A DNA stretch of 64,000 nucleotides, taken from the sequence record NC_135731.1, one strand, 5' to 3'. Positions 7,017 through 64,000 of this stretch are shown piece after piece. The notes under the pieces are model-generated. The model was not told the origin of the DNA and ran no database searches. It saw only the letters and a list, made by a program, of their open reading frames with translations. Source of the DNA: a phage. The position numbers and the translations under genes were made by a program. The number at the start of each line of letters is the position of its first letter. Within the stretch, counting starts at the first letter, position 1.

Positions 7017-7093
7017 TGGTCTCCACGGAGTGATTCGAACACTCGACCTCCTGATCCCAAATCAGGCGCTCTACCAAGCTGAGCTACGCGGAG
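7017..7093 (-). tRNA. tRNA-Pro (anticodon UGG)
   Basis: Minus sense CTCCGCGTAGCTCAGCTTGGTAGAGCGCCTGATTTGGGATCAGG...GTTCGAATCACTCCGTGGAGACCA; cloverleaf hand-folded, anticodon loop TTTGGGA, encoded CCA. Confidence 0.7.
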
Positions 7094-7104
7094 TATTTAT
7101 AATT

Positions 7105-7179
7105 TGGTGGCCCTGGGTGGAATTGAACCACCGTCTGGCGATTATGAGTCGCTTGCTTGAACCTTCCAGCTACAGGGCC
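7105..7179 (-). tRNA. tRNA with CAU anticodon (Met, fMet or Ile-lysidine)
   Basis: Minus sense GGCCCTG...anticodon loop CTCATAA...GGTTCAATTCCACCCAGGGCCACCA; acceptor and T-arm pair well, D-stem weak. Confidence 0.6.
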
Positions 7180-7180
7180 A

Positions 7181-7256
7181 TGGTGCTGATGGCAGGACTT
7201 GAACCTGCAACCTATTGATTACAAATCAATTGCACTACCAATTGTGCTACATCAGC
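7181..7256 (-). tRNA. tRNA-Thr (anticodon UGU)
   Basis: Minus sense GCTGATGTAGCACAATTGGTAGTGCAATTGATTTGTAATCAAT...GGTTCAAGTCCTGCCATCAGCACCA; all four arms fold. Confidence 0.75.
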
Positions 7257-7262
7257 AAAAAG

Positions 7263-7360
7263 GTGCTAGGTGATGGAATCGAACCATCTATGTATTCAAC
7301 GACTACCTCGTCTATTTTCAGGATTAAAAATCCTCGCCCTTGCCAAAGGGCTTACCTAGC
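7263..7360 (-). tRNA. atypical tRNA-like element (about 98 nt; anticodon unresolved, possibly UUU)
   Basis: Perfect acceptor stem GCTAGGT/ACCTAGC, D-arm GCCC..GGGC and T-arm GATGGTTCGATTCCATC, but about 31 nt lie between anticodon stem and T-stem and CCA is not encoded. Confidence 0.35.
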
Positions 7361-7458
7361 TCAGTATGTTGACCATGTTGCTAGTCGGCGATGACGACTG
7401 TAACATTTGATAATCCGGTTCTGCTTCCGGCTTTCGCTTAATTACAAGGCCAACAATG

Positions 7459-7549
7459 TGGCGGAGAGTAATGGAATCGAACCATCATCGAGTCATCCTC
7501 AATGGGACGGTTTTCAAGACCGCTTGAGCACCATTGCTCCCTACCCTCC
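7459..7549 (-). tRNA. tRNA-Ser (anticodon UGA), type II
   Basis: Minus sense GGAGGGT...anticodon arm GCGGTCTTGAAAACCGT...long variable arm...GGTTCGATTCCATTACTCTCCGCCA; 91 nt; anticodon arm matches E. coli tRNA-Ser(UGA). Confidence 0.65.
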
Positions 7550-7663
7550 TTTATAAATTATACTGATAATGACACTGATTTTCGAGCAGTTAGTGACTAG
7601 TATAAACGACGATAAATATCAATGCCATTATCTGTATTATTTATGCATCTAAAAATATAAATT

Positions 7664-7750
7664 TGGTGGGGAGTGGTGGAGTCGAACCACCCGAGTCGCA
7701 ATGACAATAGATTTACAGTCTACACCGCTACCTCTACGGGATAACTCCCC
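7664..7750 (-). tRNA. tRNA-Tyr (anticodon GUA), type II
   Basis: Minus sense GGGGAGT...TAGACTGTAAATCTA...GGTTCGACTCCACCACTCCCCACCA; 87 nt; anticodon loop CTGTAAA. Confidence 0.65.
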
Positions 7751-7754
7751 AATT

Positions 7755-7829
7755 TGGCACCCCGTACTGGACTCGAACCAGTGTCAACGGCTTAGAAGGC
7801 CGCTGCTTTATCCACTAAGCTAACAGGGT
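7755..7829 (-). tRNA. tRNA-Arg (anticodon UCU)
   Basis: Minus sense ACCCTGTTAGCTTAGTGGATAAAGCAGCGGCCTTCTAAGCCGT...CTGGTTCGAGTCCAGTACGGGGTGCCA; A1:U72 acceptor pair. Confidence 0.6.
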
Positions 7830-50719: not shown

Positions 50720-51480
50720 CACACAATTAGCTGCCTGGCTAAAGTGCTGGAGCACCTATAGCACATCTTTCAACTAAATTTCCTACCACCACAATCACTT
50801 ACCTCCCACACATGACTGTTTGCTTGTTTAGTGAGCAGTCATGCCTTGACATTCTTGTCTATCCTGATAAAATTAAGTTCTTCTCTTTTCTTTTACCGAG
50901 TAATTCGGGTTTTCTGTTCTCTTCGGTTTGAAGGGGTATGGAGATACACCTGAGTGAACAGGGTGAACAACCGAACCATTGGCTATGGCATTAGCATGGC
51001 GAAGCGGACGGGTGACGAAAGAGGGGCCGGAGGACACTAGTCACTGCCATATGATATATGGGTGATAACCTGAAGAGTCTGAATAAGTGTTTAAGTACCA
51101 GTCAGAGGAAAAGGTGAATGGTAGCCGAAGGGGGAGGGGGGTTTCTTGTATCTTTAATTTGTATATTATGCATACACTTGTAAACCAATCTCATCTGAAT
51201 CTGTTTACCACACAAAGTGGATTGAGACAAATATTACCTATTAAACCTGAATTATTTATAGAAAATACCACAACACCACTTAAGTCTTTGATTTTACACA
51301 TAAATCCTACAGATATTCACCCTCCATATTTAACATACTTGTAACATATCCCATACTCTACCTGTCTGATCAATTTCCCCAACCACATCCCCATATTTTC
51401 CCTTCCTGTACTACCCCTGCCCCGCCGGGAGTCCCGTCATATCTGGCTTTCCAGCAAATATCACACCCACAAATATCATT

Positions 51481-51631
51481 GCCTGAAGAGGGTTTCATCC
51501 CATAATACATGCCTTACCTGAAGAGCGCTTCATATACCCCGTAAATTTTTTAATTGACCCCCCTCCCCGCCGCCGGAGAGGTTGGCTTTTCCCACACAGA
51601 CCTGAAGAGTCAGCCAGAAATATCTGAAGAG
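51481..51631. repeat. cluster of CCTGAAGAG direct repeats
   Basis: Four copies ((C/T)CTGAAGAG) at about 51481, 51517, 51601, 51623; two more at about 50422 and 51069. Confidence 0.6.
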
Positions 51632-52189
51632 GGTCCAGTTCTACCCTGTCAGGAGCCGGTAGCGACTGGAGTGCTGCCAGGCGGACGAAATGGGAATACT
51701 TCTCATTCTTATAACAATTCTCAAATATCGAGGCAGTGAGGCAAATTAATAGGTTAGGCCGTTCACACAGTGGCACAACATTTGCAACCTATCTTGTGGG
51801 AGTGAATGAGAATACCTATCATTGTGAGAATAGTTATCATTACGGGCAATTTAACATAATACCCATTATGCGCACCACTGGCGATACATACAGGGATTGA
51901 TAACATGAGTTACTGTTTACACACATAACAATTATATTTCTTACTATTTGTGTGGGATATAGTTAGCAGCCGATAGATTAGATATTGACCTGCGGACTTC
52001 TGACCATCTAGACGTCTAAACGCCCACACAACAAGGCTTATACATACATCGCTGAATGTAAACAGGGCCGCAAAAATGCTACCATACAAGCTTGTAAATT
52101 TTTCATGCAGCACTTGACAAAGAGGAGAAAAACTTGTCTGACACAATATGACTTAATTGCCACAACATGACACTTTTGCACACCTGATT

Positions 52190-52575
52190 GTTTGCATATC
52201 TAATAGTTTACATGGATAACTGTTCACATACTTATCATTTACATGATTGACTGTTTACACAGAGATGATAAGCCATGCCATTCGTTTGCATGATAACAAT
52301 TAACCAGTTTACAATTAACAAGTTAATAATCTTTCGCTGGCTATGCCAGGTGACTAGGTCACCCCTTCAGGTGTTTCTATGACATAATATAAAAGCAGGG
52401 CAACTATTAGCAGATCTATAGTTGCCTTGCTTGTCATGTCATGATTAACTAAATACAAGGCAACTATGATCTGATTAATAGTTTGCAGACAAACTATCAC
52501 GGGGGTGATGGTTACTGCTTTTATATTATGTCGCGACTCCGTCGCGCCATGCCATTCGTTTGCATAGTTGCCTTA
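52190..52575. repeat. complex repeat region (GTTTACA-like iterons, 19-bp inverted repeat, GCAACTAT palindromes)
   Basis: Repeated (A/T)GTTTACA(T/C) and CGTTTGCAT units 52205-52315; CCATGCCATTCGTTTGCAT at about 52273 and 52548; inverted repeat TGACATAATATAAAAGCAG (about 52379) / CTGCTTTTATATTATGTCG (about 52515); GGCAACTAT...ATAGTTGCC palindrome. Confidence 0.65.
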
Positions 52576-53179
52576 TTGTTACGAATAAAACAATTGCATT
52601 GTTAATGATTTCTTATCTTTCTCTTAGTCATCTAATGATTCCAGTCAGTATAGTAATGTACAGTAAACATTAGACGACTAAAGATTTCTCTGTTTATTAT
52701 AACTTACCGTTACAATTTCGGACTGTTTACCAAGAATGTTGACACATAAGCTGATTTATGTTATGCAGTTTACACGAATAATTATTTTATGCAGGTATTG
52801 ACTATTCCGTTATTCCATGGTTGGAATAAATACTTAGCAGACTATAGAATGGTGAGCGTACGTAAATTCTGAGATCTGGCGGCTATAGTTATACTCGATT
52901 TTTCACGTAGAACACGCTTTTGTGAGTGTGTAAGTGTATGACTTATAAAGATTTTTAGTTGTTGACAAGATATTGAAGATGTGCATCAGGTTAAATTTTG
53001 TGCAATAGCGGCATTACGTGCAATCTTGAGAGAGAAAACGGGTAAAAATGGCCCTGCTACCACACAATGAAAAATTATGCAATAGTTATTTTACATGTAT
53101 GTTTGTACAGTGTGTGGGATTGATGGCTAGTCAATTATTCCACTTGCCAGGCTGGGCCGTTTGTGGTAGGAGAAATACA

Positions 53180-53215
53180 GACAAAAAGAAAGGGGCCTTT
53201 TAAAGCCCCTGATAG
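53180..53215 (-). terminator. rho-independent terminator (minus strand)
   Basis: Minus-sense hairpin GGGGCTTTAAAAGGCCCC followed by TTTCTTTTT, immediately downstream of 53229..53648. Confidence 0.55.
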
Positions 53216-53228
53216 TTTAGTTAAGAAA

Positions 53229-54390: not shown

Positions 54391-54608
54391 AGTGTTTTCC
54401 TCTCTTCTGGTTGTTGTGTGGGCACCTTTGCCCCTTCAAGATAAATGTTACCCCACCCCCCTGGCAGATGTCAACGGTTTTTATAGTTCTTATATGACAG
54501 GCAGGCCCGGTGATTGTCTCCCCCTGTTCCCAAGTGCCGCCCGTTTAATAAGAATAGCAAAAGGGGCCGAACAAGTCAACCCCAAAATCAGTACCAAAAC
54601 ACTTTTAT

Positions 54609-63033: not shown

Positions 63034-63231
63034 TTATTTTTTATTAAACCAGTGGTTGATCTGGCCTTTTGTCAGGGCGCAACGATTAAGCTGTTGCCGG
63101 GTATAGCTCTGACCACGACGGAATTTATAAAGGCCTTGCCCGTTGTTGATGGTTACATCCACCCGGCAAATCACTTGATCCGTGACCACCTGGCGAGTGT
63201 TGCGACGTACTTTGATTCCGTAGGCGTTCAT
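63034..63231 (-). CDS. hypothetical protein
   Basis: 65 aa, AGAGG RBS. Confidence 0.35.
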   Translation of the reverse strand: MNAYGIKVRRNTRQVVTDQVICRVDVTINNGQGLYKFRRGQSYTRQQLNRCALTKGQINHWFNKK

Positions 63232-63469
63232 GATTTTTTATCCTCTTTGTTAATTAGTGCGGTGTTGTTCACCTTGCGATAATAAGAATAACAAGAACTG
63301 CCCGAGCTGTCAACCATTATGTAAAATTATTTTTTGGGTAGAATTCTCCAGCCGCCACCCCCTGCCAGGTTTGCAAGCTTTCACTCTCCCACCTGGTCAG
63401 TTAGGTCCTGCTAGGGCTGGCCCCGCCAGGTTGCAGCGGTTGACGCACTATGTTAGAAAAATTTTTTGA

Positions 63470-63730
63470 AAAGTGTTGACAACGGCCCCACCAGGTGGCA
63501 CAATATACATATCGAAAGGACGGCAGGCACCGGTGACGGGGGAGACAACCACCGGGGATGGGCGCTGCATAAAATGAGAACGGTTATCATTATCATTTAA
63601 AAATTTATGCAAAAAGTCCTTGCTTTCTTTGTCCTGTGTGATACTATAATAACAAGCCGGGGCAGTAGGGGCCGGGAGACAATCACCGGGCCTGCCCGTT
63701 ATTCTGCAAACGAGAATGATTATCATTCAA
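63470..63730 (+). repeat. two tandem promoter-plus-structured-GC units (possible small RNA genes)
   Basis: Unit 1: TTGACA...CACAAT then GGCAGGCACCGGTGACGGGGGAGACAACCACCGGGG...GAGAACGGTTATCATTATCATT; unit 2: TTGCTT...TATAAT then GGGGCAGTAGGGGCCGGGAGACAATCACCGGGCC...GAGAATGATTATCATT. Confidence 0.4.
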
Positions 63731-63829
63731 AATTCTAAATGAGAACTCCTCGCATTTAATAAATTTAATTAGCATGCTAATTACCCTCCGTAACAATTTC
63801 CTATAAAACAGTATCCCATAAAATATTCC

Positions 63830-64000
63830 CATATAGAAATTTTAAAAATCCATTTCTGAAAACGAAAAATCGATTTCGTCCCCAAAAATTTTAGGTCGAG
63901 AGCCGGAACGATTTCCAGAAAATCCGATTCAGAAAACGAAAAACAAATCGAGTACTGAGAAATTTATCGAGAAAAATTTTCAGAAAATTCAATCTTTGAA
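63830..64000. repeat. AT-rich tandem direct repeats at window end
   Basis: Recurring TTTCTGAAAACGAAAAATCGATTT / TTCAGAAAACGAAAAACAAATCGAG / TTTTCAGAAAATTCAA units. Confidence 0.5.

What the first reader, a model, noticed from the sequence alone, without database searches (positions are those of the whole stretch)
63250..64000. Window end: two tandem promoter-plus-GC-structured units and AT-rich tandem repeats
Two about 100-bp units each pair a sigma70-like promoter with a GC-rich segment (GGGAGACAA(C/T)CACCGGG) and a GAGAA(C/T)G(G)TTATCATT tail, resembling small RNA genes. These are followed by direct repeats of TTCAGAAAACGAAAAA-like units running to the window end. This may be a genome-end or regulatory repeat region.
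Basis: seen in the sequence. Interest (0 to 1): 0.45.

Follow-up and report, generated by a model that had tools for sequence, protein, structure and literature searches.

The report
Phage promoter–hairpin–Fur-box control region
A gene-free stretch of an rV5-like E. coli phage carries two copies of a module made of a host-type promoter, a conserved RNA hairpin and a binding site for the host iron sensor Fur, followed by three AT-rich repeats. It is a real and apparently undescribed control region, not a genome end.

Summary
The window ends inside a 1.1-kb gene-free gap (63232 to about 64334) of a Vequintavirus, 100% identical to phage phiWec196.

Two tandem modules point against the flanking genes. 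Each has a sigma70-type promoter, a GC-rich hairpin with the invariant loop GAGACAAnCACCG, and a "tail". Three 57-nt AT-rich repeats follow, 65-74 bp apart; the third is cut by the window end.

**New result:** the tails are Fur boxes. They are the best matches to the E. coli Fur consensus in 70 kb (16/19 and 15/19). The family consensus AATGAGAATnATTCTCATT equals published Fur-box consensuses.

- The hairpin-plus-box unit, with box 1 at 31-35 nt after the loop motif, is conserved across Vequintavirinae and Stephanstirmvirinae. Where a locus has further boxes they mostly follow at 29-bp steps.
- A third promoter-hairpin copy lies at 54.5 kb.
- Related Fur-box arrays lie in phage T5's injection-stop repeat region.
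- Nothing matches Rfam, and I found no prior description.

**Best reading:** host Fur bound to the boxes gates non-coding transcription from the hairpin promoters into an iteron-like repeat region, possibly an origin.

Fur binding, the transcripts and the role of the repeats are inferred, not shown. A genome end is not supported. Classic sRNA genes are only partly supported, because there is no terminator.

The parts
63285..63313 (-). Leftward sigma70-type promoter (TTGACA-17-TATTCT, with TG) for the 65-aa gene at 63034-63231. It marks the left edge of the non-coding unit and diverges from P1.
   Evidence: L001 6314-6286; coordinates checked; conserved in 8 Vequintavirus genomes
63457..63467 (.). 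A5T6 tract just upstream of P1. Similar AAAAATTTT tracts recur inside the repeats.
63476..63504 (+). P1: TTGACA, 17-bp spacer holding the inverted repeat CCACCAGGTGG, then TG-n-CACAAT.
   Evidence: hexamers conserved among Vequintavirus genomes
63523..63568 (+). Unit 1 hairpin with loop GGGAGACAACCACCGGG (63540-63556). It is invariant in all 8 Vequintavirus genomes. Its 5' half (ACGGCAGGCAC) matches the rV5 copy of the 54.5-kb module.
   Evidence: (MFE -20.1, z -2.3 on the + strand against -1.5 on the - strand)
63572..63598 (.). Fur-box-like operator after unit 1: AAATGAGAACGGTTATCATTATCATTT. It matches the E. coli Fur 19-mer at 16 of 19 positions and ends 21 bp before the -35 of P2.
63620..63650 (+). 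P2: TTGCTT, 19-bp spacer, TATAAT. It is the counterpart of the TTGCAA/TTGCTT...TATTAT promoter in front of the hairpin in other genera.
63659..63697 (+). Unit 2 hairpin (called RNA2-type here): outer stem GGGCAG/CUGCCC, inner stem CCGG/CCGG, loop GAGACAAUCA. The covariance-model hit spans 63652-63709.
   Evidence: (36.7 bits, E 1.5e-7)
63708..63728 (.). Fur box 1 of unit 2: AAACGAGAATGATTATCATTC. It matches the E. coli 19-mer at 15 of 19, the 7-1-7 motif at 12 of 14, and the phage/Xanthomonas consensus at 16 of 18. It starts 33 nt after the loop motif, as in every genus.
63737..63757 (.). Fur box 2 of unit 2, degenerate: AAATGAGAACTCCTCGCATTT (14 of 18). It starts 29 bp after box 1.
63767..63782 (.). 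Perfect 16-bp palindrome AATTAGCATGCTAATT. A similar TTAGCnTGCTAAT follows the Fur box in T5-like phages.
63832..64000 (.). Three AT-rich iteron-like repeats (63832-63888, 63906-63962, 63971-64027), each with an A/T tract, GAAAACGAAAAA and ATCGAGTAC. The third is cut by the window end. The unit continues in L001 7029-7334 with a G-rich variable spacer, conserved right-end motifs and a bidirectional terminator.
54445..54579 (-). Third copy of the promoter-hairpin module: TTGACT-17-TATTCT at 54579-54551 and the hairpin with GAGACAATCACCG at 54544-54497. A second promoter (54474-54445) and a 90-aa gene follow. No clear Fur box follows in this phage, but one does in Certrevirus relatives.
51688..51843 (.). 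Second cluster of four Fur-like boxes, inside the 1.9-kb gene-free gap 51345-53228.

Best explanation
The finding is the left two-thirds of a conserved non-coding control region of rV5-like phages.

Host RNA polymerase starts at two tandem sigma70 promoters that point against the surrounding early genes. Each transcript begins with a conserved GC-rich hairpin, and the same promoter-hairpin module also sits at 54.5 kb. Immediately after each hairpin, at a fixed distance, lies one or more palindromic operators for the host iron-responsive repressor Fur.

I propose that Fur-Fe2+ bound there gates how far these transcripts run: either short hairpin RNAs, or read-through into the next promoter and the three AT-rich iteron-like repeats. 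That would tie a cis-acting function of the repeat region, most likely activation of DNA replication, to the host's iron status.

**Shown:** the elements, their order, their conservation, and the Fur-box identity at sequence level.

**Inferred:** Fur binding, the transcripts and their ends, the gating, and the origin function.
For: **Context**
- The region is a 1.1-kb gap between leftward genes, bounded by a leftward promoter on the left and a terminator on the right.

**Conservation**
- The hairpin-plus-box core is the only part of the gap that still gives DNA matches (75-88% identity) in Phapecoctavirus, Justusliebigvirus, Mydovirus, Seunavirus, Certrevirus and Henunavirus. These phages infect E. 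coli, Klebsiella, Proteus, Salmonella, Cronobacter, Enterobacter, Pectobacterium and Erwinia, and the matches are mostly in unannotated DNA.
- Within Vequintavirus the promoters, hairpins, boxes and repeats are nearly invariant next to a highly variable spacer.

**Fur-box identity**
- The two best matches to GATAATGATAATCATTATC in 70 kb (both strands) are 63576 (16/19) and 63712 (15/19). Only 4 sites reach 15 or more.
- The family consensus AATGAGAATnATTCTCATT is letter for letter the Xanthomonas Fur consensus (PMC1790865). It contains the E. faecalis Fur box TGAGAATGATTCTCA (PMC6056675) and matches A. baumannii Fur boxes (PMC3055841).
- Of four weak E. coli genome hits to the box array (E 0.1 to 4), the one I inspected among the three near-identical hits is a canonical Fur box upstream of a plasmid DAHP-synthase gene.
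- The boxes stay constant across phages of different hosts while the neighbouring repeats diverge by genus, as expected for a conserved host factor.
- Box 1 keeps a G/A asymmetry (GAGAAT...ATTATC). This would break an RNA stem but fits two acceptable Fur half-sites.
- No Fur homologue is encoded by these phages.

**Coupling of hairpin and box**
- Box 1 starts 31-35 nt after the loop motif at every main locus.
- Further boxes follow mostly at 29-bp steps. Certrevirus has one 38-bp step and FKP3 has about 34-bp steps.
- The second-locus copies in Certrevirus also carry a box, about 63 nt after the loop motif.

**Hairpin on the promoter strand**
- 90.8% of cells are paired, against 36-59% when partners are slid.
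- Many G-C, G-U and A-U exchanges would be mismatches on the other strand.
- Folding z-scores are better on the sense strand for all three copies.

**Repeat region**
- Three repeats of 65-76 bp recur in three genera, and GC is about 0.30.
Against: - There are no expression or binding data of any kind.
- Covariation is weak. Only 2 of 13 pairs change on both sides, and shuffles reach the observed covariation score 41 times in 500. Folding z-scores are modest, -1.0 to -2.3.
- The boxes do not overlap the -35 or -10 of a promoter as classical Fur operators do. They lie about +55 from the upstream start and 16-32 bp upstream of the next -35 where one exists. Repression by roadblock or occlusion is therefore an assumption.
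- P2 has a 19-bp spacer.
- For the origin idea: no DnaA or IHF consensus sites, GATC is depleted, the rV5 authors found no skew signal here (PMC3606486), and no initiator gene is known. All flanking proteins are of unknown function.
- The 54.5-kb copy in this phage lacks a clear box.
Confidence: 0.45

Rival explanations
1. The two units, and the 54.5-kb copy, are stand-alone genes for small trans-acting RNAs that pair with host or phage mRNAs through the invariant loop GAGACAAnCACCG. On this view the Fur boxes only regulate neighbouring promoters, or provide the AU-rich 3' portion of the RNA.
For: - Each copy has its own sigma70-type promoter directly upstream of a conserved 5' hairpin.
- The loop is invariant while the stems vary.
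- There are several paralogous copies per genome.
- They lie in gene-free DNA with no coding signal across genera, because of the 2-nt loop indel.
- They are not in Rfam.
Against: - No copy has a GC stem followed by a U run or any other recognisable terminator.
- At 54.5 kb the transcript would run on into a gene.
- The fixed hairpin-to-box distance and the mostly 29-bp box arrays point to DNA-level function.
- No target complementarity was found or tested.
Confidence: 0.15
2. The region is the phage replication origin or another cis-acting DNA site, read by phage proteins only. The palindromic boxes and the three repeats would bind phage-encoded factors, and the resemblance to Fur boxes would be coincidental.
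For: - The layout is iteron-like: three 65-76-bp repeats, an AT-rich stretch, palindromes, and promoters reading into the repeats, as at T7 and T4 origins (origin layouts from my own knowledge).
- The repeats change sequence by genus, as sites for co-evolving phage proteins would.
Against: - The boxes do not diverge by genus. They match published Fur consensuses at up to 18 of 18 positions in phages of seven host genera, and they occur in unrelated T5-like phages too.
- No origin evidence exists: no DnaA or IHF sites, no skew signal, and no known initiator nearby.
Confidence: 0.15
3. The hairpins are cis-acting elements of the nascent transcript. They would act like HK022 put or lambda nut sites, or as 5' stabilisers, changing RNA polymerase or RNA decay for whatever lies downstream. 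This is compatible with the best explanation.
For: - The hairpin starts at or near the predicted 5' end of the transcript.
- The loop is invariant.
- There are three copies, each directly downstream of an early-type promoter, and one is in front of genes.
- There is no terminator, so transcripts continue downstream.
Against: - There is no sequence or structural similarity to put or nut. By eye I saw no boxA-like element.
- No candidate antiterminator protein was identified.
- Structure support is modest.
Confidence: 0.15
4. The region marks a physical genome end, a terminal repeat, or an injection-stop-like site.
For: - Related Fur-box arrays and a hairpin-plus-box unit lie in the terminal repeat of T5-like phages. 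In T5 they sit next to the first-step-transfer end and the 7.9% nick.
- One public record (phiWec189, LC739538.1) starts inside this region (H54), and several Vequintavirus and Phapecoctavirus records start within about 1-3 kb of the 54.5-kb-type copy.
Against: - The region is internal in phiWec196, rV5, FV3, WalterGehring and most complete records.
- It occurs once per genome in nearly all records.
- The sequence is continuous across the window end.
- No read data were available.
Confidence: 0.06
5. The region codes for small proteins, as several public annotations have it (rV5 ORF196-199; bas51_0102-0105; the 59-aa ORF in phiWec196).
For: ORFs of 43-92 aa exist on both strands and are annotated in some records.
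Against: - Annotations disagree between records over near-identical DNA.
- Conservation follows promoters, hairpins and palindromes rather than reading frames. There are frame-breaking indels across genera, and the only variable segment is the one annotated as a gene in phiWec196.
- One such ORF is flagged "poor ribosome-binding site" by its annotators.
Confidence: 0.03

Closest known systems
Fur boxes, the operators of the ferric uptake regulator: E. coli 19-mer GATAATGATAATCATTATC; 7-1-7 motif TGATAATnATTATCA; Xanthomonas consensus AATGAgAATcATTctCATT
   Same: - The palindrome and half-sites are the same.
- The window boxes reach 16/19 and 15/19 on the E. coli 19-mer.
- Relatives reach 17-18 of 18 on the published Xanthomonas consensus.
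- They are clustered in arrays, as at strong Fur sites.
   Different: - They are carried by virulent phages in gene-free DNA.
- They do not overlap a promoter core, and are not next to an iron-uptake gene.
- They sit at a fixed distance after an RNA hairpin and mostly repeat every 29 bp.
- Fur binding is untested.
Phage T5 left-terminal-repeat Repeat Region 3: direct repeat C copies 1-4 and palindromes E-I, the proposed injection stop signal
   Same: - It holds an array of at least five of the same boxes (AY587007 9473-9640).
- One stretch of 29 nt is 96.6% identical to the Phapecoctavirus array.
- T5-like relatives have a GC hairpin + ATTCTC + perfect box + TTAGCnTGCTAAT, and in at least one contig (L098) a TATAAT directly upstream.
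- The setting is a large, conserved, repeat-rich untranslated region.
   Different: - This is an unrelated phage family.
- The region lies in a terminal repeat beside DnaA boxes and a nick.
- It is described only as repeats and palindromes, with DnaA boxes as the proposed actors. Fur is not mentioned (10.1101/866236).
- rV5-like phages are not known to inject in two steps.
Transcription-activated phage origins: T7 primary origin with tandem promoters phi1.1A/B plus an AT-rich stretch; T4 oriF and oriG with a promoter plus an unwinding element (own knowledge)
   Same: Tandem promoters read into an AT-rich, repeat-bearing, gene-free stretch.
   Different: - The promoters are host sigma70 promoters.
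- Structured hairpins and Fur boxes are interposed.
- No origin activity has been shown, and no initiator or primer site is defined.
HK022 put and lambda nut sites: promoter-proximal RNA hairpins that modify RNA polymerase (own knowledge)
   Same: - They are hairpins directly downstream of early promoters.
- There are several copies per genome.
- Loops are conserved while stems vary.
   Different: - No sequence or structural similarity.
- No boxA and no known partner.
- No function tested.
Fur boxes on temperate phages: upstream of sitABCD on lambdoid phages (PMC6969025); stx1 on Shiga-toxin phages (own knowledge)
   Same: Phage DNA wired into the host Fur regulon.
   Different: Those boxes overlap the promoter of a cargo gene on temperate phages. 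Here there is no cargo gene and the phages are virulent.

Membership tests
Fur box (Fur operator) | Match to the 19-bp palindromic consensus or the 7-1-7 motif | tested here: met
   - 16/19 at 63576 and 15/19 at 63712, the top scores in 70 kb.
- 12/14 on the 7-1-7 motif at 63711.
- Relatives reach 17-18/18 on the published consensus AATGAgAATcATTctCATT.
Fur box (Fur operator) | Overlaps or abuts the -35/-10 of the regulated promoter | tested here: not met
   The boxes lie about 55 nt downstream of the upstream start site and 16-32 bp upstream of the next -35 where one exists.
Fur box (Fur operator) | Bound by Fur with Fe2+ or Mn2+; iron- and fur-dependent expression | not testable with these tools
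   Needs a gel-shift, footprint, Fur titration assay or expression data. No phage-encoded Fur homologue was found.
Trans-acting bacterial or phage sRNA gene | Own promoter | tested here: met
   P1 is TTGACA-17-CACAAT and P2 is TTGCTT-19-TATAAT. Both are conserved.
Trans-acting bacterial or phage sRNA gene | Rho-independent terminator or another defined 3' end | tested here: not met
   No GC stem plus T run follows any of the three copies.
Trans-acting bacterial or phage sRNA gene | Conserved secondary structure with covariation | tested here: inconclusive
   90.8% of cells are paired against 36-59% when slid, but only 2 of 13 pairs change on both sides, and shuffles reach the observed covariation score 41 times in 500.
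Any Rfam 15 family | Covariance-model match | tested here: not met
   Only chance-level hits in the region and in four relatives. The whole window gives tRNAs only.
Iteron-type or transcription-activated replication origin | Direct repeats next to an AT-rich stretch | tested here: met
   Three repeats of 57 nt spaced 65-74 bp, with GC about 0.30. The same count and spacing recur in Seunavirus and Henunavirus.
Iteron-type or transcription-activated replication origin | Host initiator or architectural sites (DnaA boxes, IHF), GATC clusters | tested here: not met
   One 8/9 DnaA-like site, no IHF consensus, and 1.8 GATC per kb against 6.1 in the flanks.
Iteron-type or transcription-activated replication origin | Origin activity; adjacent initiator gene | not testable with these tools
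   Flanking proteins are all of unknown function. The rV5 authors found no skew signal here.
Genome terminus or terminal repeat | Lies at the ends of complete genomes, or is present twice per genome | tested here: not met
   It is internal in phiWec196, rV5, FV3 and others, and is present once in nearly all records.
put/nut-like antitermination element | Promoter-proximal conserved hairpin in several copies | tested here: met
   Three copies, each just downstream of a promoter.
put/nut-like antitermination element | Terminator read-through that depends on the element | not testable with these tools
   Needs reporter or in vitro transcription assays.

The most novel reading that the evidence does not exclude
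Large virulent enterobacterial phages of at least two unrelated lineages share arrays of operators for the host iron sensor Fur, placed in their big untranslated repeat regions. The lineages are rV5-like and phAPEC8-like phages on one side and T5-like phages on the other. In rV5-like phages and some T5-like relatives a box sits directly after a GC-rich hairpin.

The phages would use host Fur in one of three ways:
- as an iron checkpoint on non-coding transcription and replication;
- as a target to be titrated by multi-copy phage DNA, so that host iron uptake is derepressed;
- in T5, as part of the DNA-entry stop.
Probability: 0.3. Interest if true: 0.8.

Novelty: new variant of a known kind. 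Interest (0 to 1): 0.6.

Why it matters
If host Fur really binds here, strictly lytic phages would be reading, or manipulating, the iron status of their host through non-coding DNA. The phages concerned include therapy candidates of the rV5, phAPEC8 and T5 groups.

- That would be a new layer of phage-host interaction.
- It would give a testable handle on why these phages keep large, conserved gene-free regions.
- It would offer a concrete candidate factor for the long-unexplained repeats of the T5 injection-stop region.

The work also defines a hairpin RNA motif absent from Rfam. It flags many small ORF annotations in public genomes as probably spurious.

Tried and rejected
**RNA databases and models**
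- Rfam at permissive thresholds on the region, on four relatives and on the whole window gave nothing relevant.
- ARAGORN found no tRNA-like element here.
- The covariance model built from six relatives finds unit 2 but not unit 1 or the 54.5-kb copy, so it under-detects the family.
- RNAalifold on the "RNA1" of other genera gave only an invariant long-range helix.

**Collection scans**
- An IMG/VR pattern scan for hairpin plus box gave only 3 loci, so comparison relied on GenBank phages.
- blastn of the box array against E. coli genomes gave only four weak hits. Two were inspected: one is a canonical Fur box, the other a prophage gap.

**Host-factor and protein checks**
- tblastn with E. coli Fur found no homologue in these phage groups.
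- DnaA, IHF and GATC checks for an oriC-like origin were negative.
- Pfam and PHROGs on ten flanking or associated small proteins returned only families of unknown function.

**Literature**
- Searches for Fur boxes in lytic phages, non-coding RNAs or origins of Vequintavirinae, and Fur in T5 found no prior description.

**Ideas considered and dropped**
- Minus-strand terminators: the tails are not U-rich in most genera.
- T4 MotA-type middle promoter: wrong spacing.
- Zur rather than Fur: the inner half-site differs.
- A short ORF through unit 2: no ribosome-binding site and frame-breaking indels.
Full report
**What the window is**

The last kilobase is 100% identical to Escherichia phage phiWec196, genus Vequintavirus (rV5-like). 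It is 87-99% identical to more than 100 relatives. In phiWec196 the finding lies at 113-114 kb of 138.7 kb.

It sits in a gene-free gap of about 1.1 kb. Window coordinates equal L001 coordinates plus 56999, so the gap is window 63232 to about 64334. Small leftward genes of unknown function lie on both sides.

- A leftward promoter (63313-63285) serves the 65-aa gene on the left.
- On the right, outside the window, GGAGGAAATCC...GGATTTCCTCC followed by a T run ends the incoming leftward operon.
- The gap is therefore an island whose own promoters point the other way.

**Check of the observation**

- P1 is TTGACA-17-CACAAT with a TG, at 63476-63504.
- P2 is TTGCTT-19-TATAAT, at 63620-63650.
- The 17-nt GC-rich core lies at 63540 and 63674, 94% identical.
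- The tails lie at 63572-63598 and 63708-63728.
- Three 57-nt AT-rich repeats start at 63832, 63906 and 63971. The last is cut by the window end.

The core motif occurs three times in the window against 0.18 expected. Promoter likeness alone is weak evidence: 8 sites against 4.3 +/- 2.2 in shuffles.

Conservation carries the case. Among eight Vequintavirus genomes the promoters, hairpins, tails and repeats are almost invariant. The next 170 bp (64026-64195) are highly variable.

**Related sequences**

A sensitive DNA search showed that the only part of the gap still alignable in distant phages is unit 2's hairpin plus tail, at 75-88% identity and mostly in unannotated DNA. The phages belong to Phapecoctavirus, Justusliebigvirus, Mydovirus, Seunavirus, Certrevirus and Henunavirus. 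Their hosts span seven enterobacterial genera.

Reading 15 such loci gives a common plan:

1. In some genera, a small rightward ORF.
2. A promoter and a roughly 95-nt structured "RNA1". This is absent from Vequintavirus, where unit 1 is instead a second hairpin module.
3. A TGTAAAGA doublet.
4. A promoter.
5. The hairpin with loop GAG(U)ACAAnCACC.
6. One to about five palindromic boxes.
7. In Seunavirus and Mydovirus, a further promoter.
8. AT-rich repeats. Three copies of 65-76 bp were counted in Seunavirus and Henunavirus; Mydovirus and Certrevirus show similar units in the raw sequence; Phapecoctavirus has a different family of AT-rich repeats.
9. A variable spacer, then right-end motifs that include AAATATC repeats.

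None of these elements matches Rfam.

**The tails are Fur boxes**

The boxes share the 21-bp palindrome AAATGAGAATnATTCTCATTT. Its core TGAGAATnATTCTCA differs from the Fur 7-1-7 motif TGATAATnATTATCA at one symmetric position.

Exact-string searches of the literature returned mainly iron papers:

- AATGAgAATcATTctCATT is the Fur consensus of Xanthomonas (PMC1790865).
- TGAGAATGATTCTCA is the Fur box of E. faecalis iron transporters (PMC6056675).
- TTAAATGAGAATCATTTTCATTTAT is an A. baumannii Fur box (PMC3055841).

Scoring 70 kb on both strands against the E. coli 19-mer puts 63576 (16/19) and 63712 (15/19) at the top. Only four sites reach 15 or more.

Four weak E. coli genome hits to a phage box array (E 0.1 to 4) include a canonical Fur box upstream of a plasmid DAHP-synthase gene. 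No phage of these groups encodes a Fur homologue.

Three points argue for a DNA operator for a conserved host factor rather than an RNA stem or a phage-specific site:

- The boxes stay the same across phages of different hosts, while the adjacent repeats change by genus.
- Box 1 keeps a G/A asymmetry that would break an RNA helix.
- Further boxes repeat mostly at 29-bp steps.

**The hairpin**

A covariance model from six relatives finds unit 2 (E 1.5e-7) and its counterparts in all genera.

- On that alignment 90.8% of cells pair, against 36-59% when partners are slid.
- The changes are mostly G-C, G-U and A-U exchanges that only work on the promoter strand.
- Only two pairs change on both sides, and shuffles reach the observed covariation score 41 times in 500. 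Covariation is therefore suggestive, not proof.
- Folding z-scores are modest (-1.0 to -2.3) but better on the sense strand for all copies.

The hairpin begins at or near the predicted transcript start. No copy is followed by a terminator.

A third copy, with its own promoter, lies on the minus strand at 54579-54497, in front of a second promoter and a 90-aa gene. That locus is conserved in other genera too. In Certrevirus it again carries a Fur-like box before the gene's promoter.

Box 1 starts 31-35 nt after the loop motif at every main locus. Hairpin and box therefore form one unit.

**A link outside the family**

Among them are T5-like phages, in which a GC hairpin, ATTCTC, a perfect box and TTAGCnTGCTAAT lie in the terminal repeat. 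In at least one contig a TATAAT stands directly upstream.

In T5 itself the annotated "direct repeat C" copies and palindromes E-I (AY587007 9473-9640) are an array of at least five such boxes.

- They sit just left of the 7.9% nick.
- One stretch of 29 nt is 96.6% identical to the Phapecoctavirus array.
- The most detailed discussion of that region that I could read invokes DnaA boxes and never mentions Fur (10.1101/866236).

**Mechanism**

*Shown:* the parts, their order, their fixed spacing, their conservation, and sequence-level Fur-box identity.

*Inferred:*
- Host RNA polymerase starts at P1 and P2 and makes RNAs that begin with the hairpin.
- Fur-Fe2+ on the boxes limits read-through into the next promoter and the repeat region.
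- Transcription of the AT-rich repeats therefore depends on iron.

The repeats look like iterons beside an easily melted stretch, with promoters reading into them as at T7 and T4 origins (own knowledge). An origin is my preferred guess for their role. It lacks any direct support:

- There are no DnaA or IHF sites, and GATC is depleted.
- The rV5 authors saw no skew signal here.

An alternative role for the boxes is titration of Fur by replicating phage DNA.

**Rivals**

- Stand-alone sRNA genes. This fits the promoters and the invariant loop, but not the missing terminators or the DNA-level box arrays.
- A purely phage-read origin. This does not fit the host-independent constancy of the boxes.
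- A put/nut-like cis element. This is compatible with the main model but untested.
- A genome end. The region is internal in most complete records and present once per genome.
- Protein coding. Annotations conflict, conservation ignores reading frames, and indels break frames.

**Novelty and verdict**

I found no description of this region, of the hairpin family, or of Fur boxes in virulent phages in the searchable literature. Fur boxes, promoter-proximal hairpins and iteron-like repeats are each known kinds. Their fixed combination in gene-free DNA of lytic phages is a new variant.

Confidence:
- that the elements are functional and conserved: high;
- that Fur binds: roughly 0.6-0.7;
- in the full gating model: about 0.45;
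- in the origin role: about 0.3.

Noticed in passing
window 51345-53228 (boxes at 51688-51843): This is a second large gene-free gap of 1.9 kb, where rightward and leftward gene blocks converge. It holds four more Fur-like boxes in two pairs, and its own direct repeats (for example ACATGAGTTACTGTTTACACA three times). It may be the "non-coding" box drawn on the published rV5 map.
   Followed up: partly
window 54445-54579, minus strand: A third promoter-hairpin module with the same loop GAGACAATCACCG lies between two leftward genes, followed by a second promoter. It is conserved in Certrevirus, Phapecoctavirus and Klebsiella phages, about 10 kb from their main locus. One record annotates it as a terminator.
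   Followed up: yes
L009 1310-1410, L011 1310-1410, L004 2860-2965, L019 1310-1410 (not in the window): Other genera have a roughly 95-nt conserved RNA1 between a promoter and the hairpin module.
- It carries the invariant CGGCG...CGCCGGTAG and a possible pseudoknot; CCCC/GGGG is replaced by CCAA/UUGG in one lineage.
- It is not in Rfam.
- Its invariant CCGGTAG resembles the ops element GGCGGTAG. That comparison comes from memory and was not tested.
   Followed up: partly
L153 (T5 AY587007 9473-9640); L035, L073, L098 (T5-like contigs): T5's annotated direct repeat C copies and palindromes E-I, in the injection-stop region, are Fur-like boxes. T5-like relatives carry a hairpin plus a perfect box in the terminal repeat. 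The T5 paper I read does not mention Fur.
   Followed up: partly
window about 63364; L002 4318-4494; L003 1594-1719: The window phage lacks a 58-aa leftward ORF that rV5, WalterGehring, FV3 and others carry just upstream of P1. The deletion lies between CCAGGTT repeats.
   Followed up: partly
L009/L011 about 1415-1440; L028 about 550-575: A TGTAAAGA motif sits immediately upstream of the -35 of several promoters in these loci. It occurs twice about 11 bp apart, or once as TCTTTACAA on the other strand. It could be an UP-like element or a factor site.
   Followed up: no
window 63482-63498; L009 1278-1300; L030 380-410; L031 380-410: Several of these promoters carry a GC-rich inverted repeat in the spacer between -35 and -10. 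Alternatively they are embedded in a terminator-like hairpin whose T run forms the spacer.
   Followed up: no
window 7017-7829: This is a cluster of seven tRNA genes on the minus strand. One 99-nt gene was called with a four-base anticodon and may contain an insertion.
   Followed up: no
GenBank MG0656xx records: About 16 records named "Campylobacter phage" are near-identical to E. coli Vequintavirus genomes over this region, which suggests mislabelled or contaminated entries.
   Followed up: no
L026 1500-1540 (E. coli H22 chromosome, prophage-like region): A Fur-like box (AAATGATAATGAAAATCATTTGC), preceded by TTCTCT, lies at the start of an 860-bp gene-free gap just upstream of capsid genes. 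It resembles the phage linker-plus-box arrangement.
   Followed up: no
IMG/VR loci L032-L151, e.g. L102 1810-1888: More than 120 viral contigs carry the perfect box AATGAGAATnATTCTCATT. One has three copies at exact 30-bp steps just upstream of a strong promoter-like TTGACA...TATAAT.
   Followed up: partly
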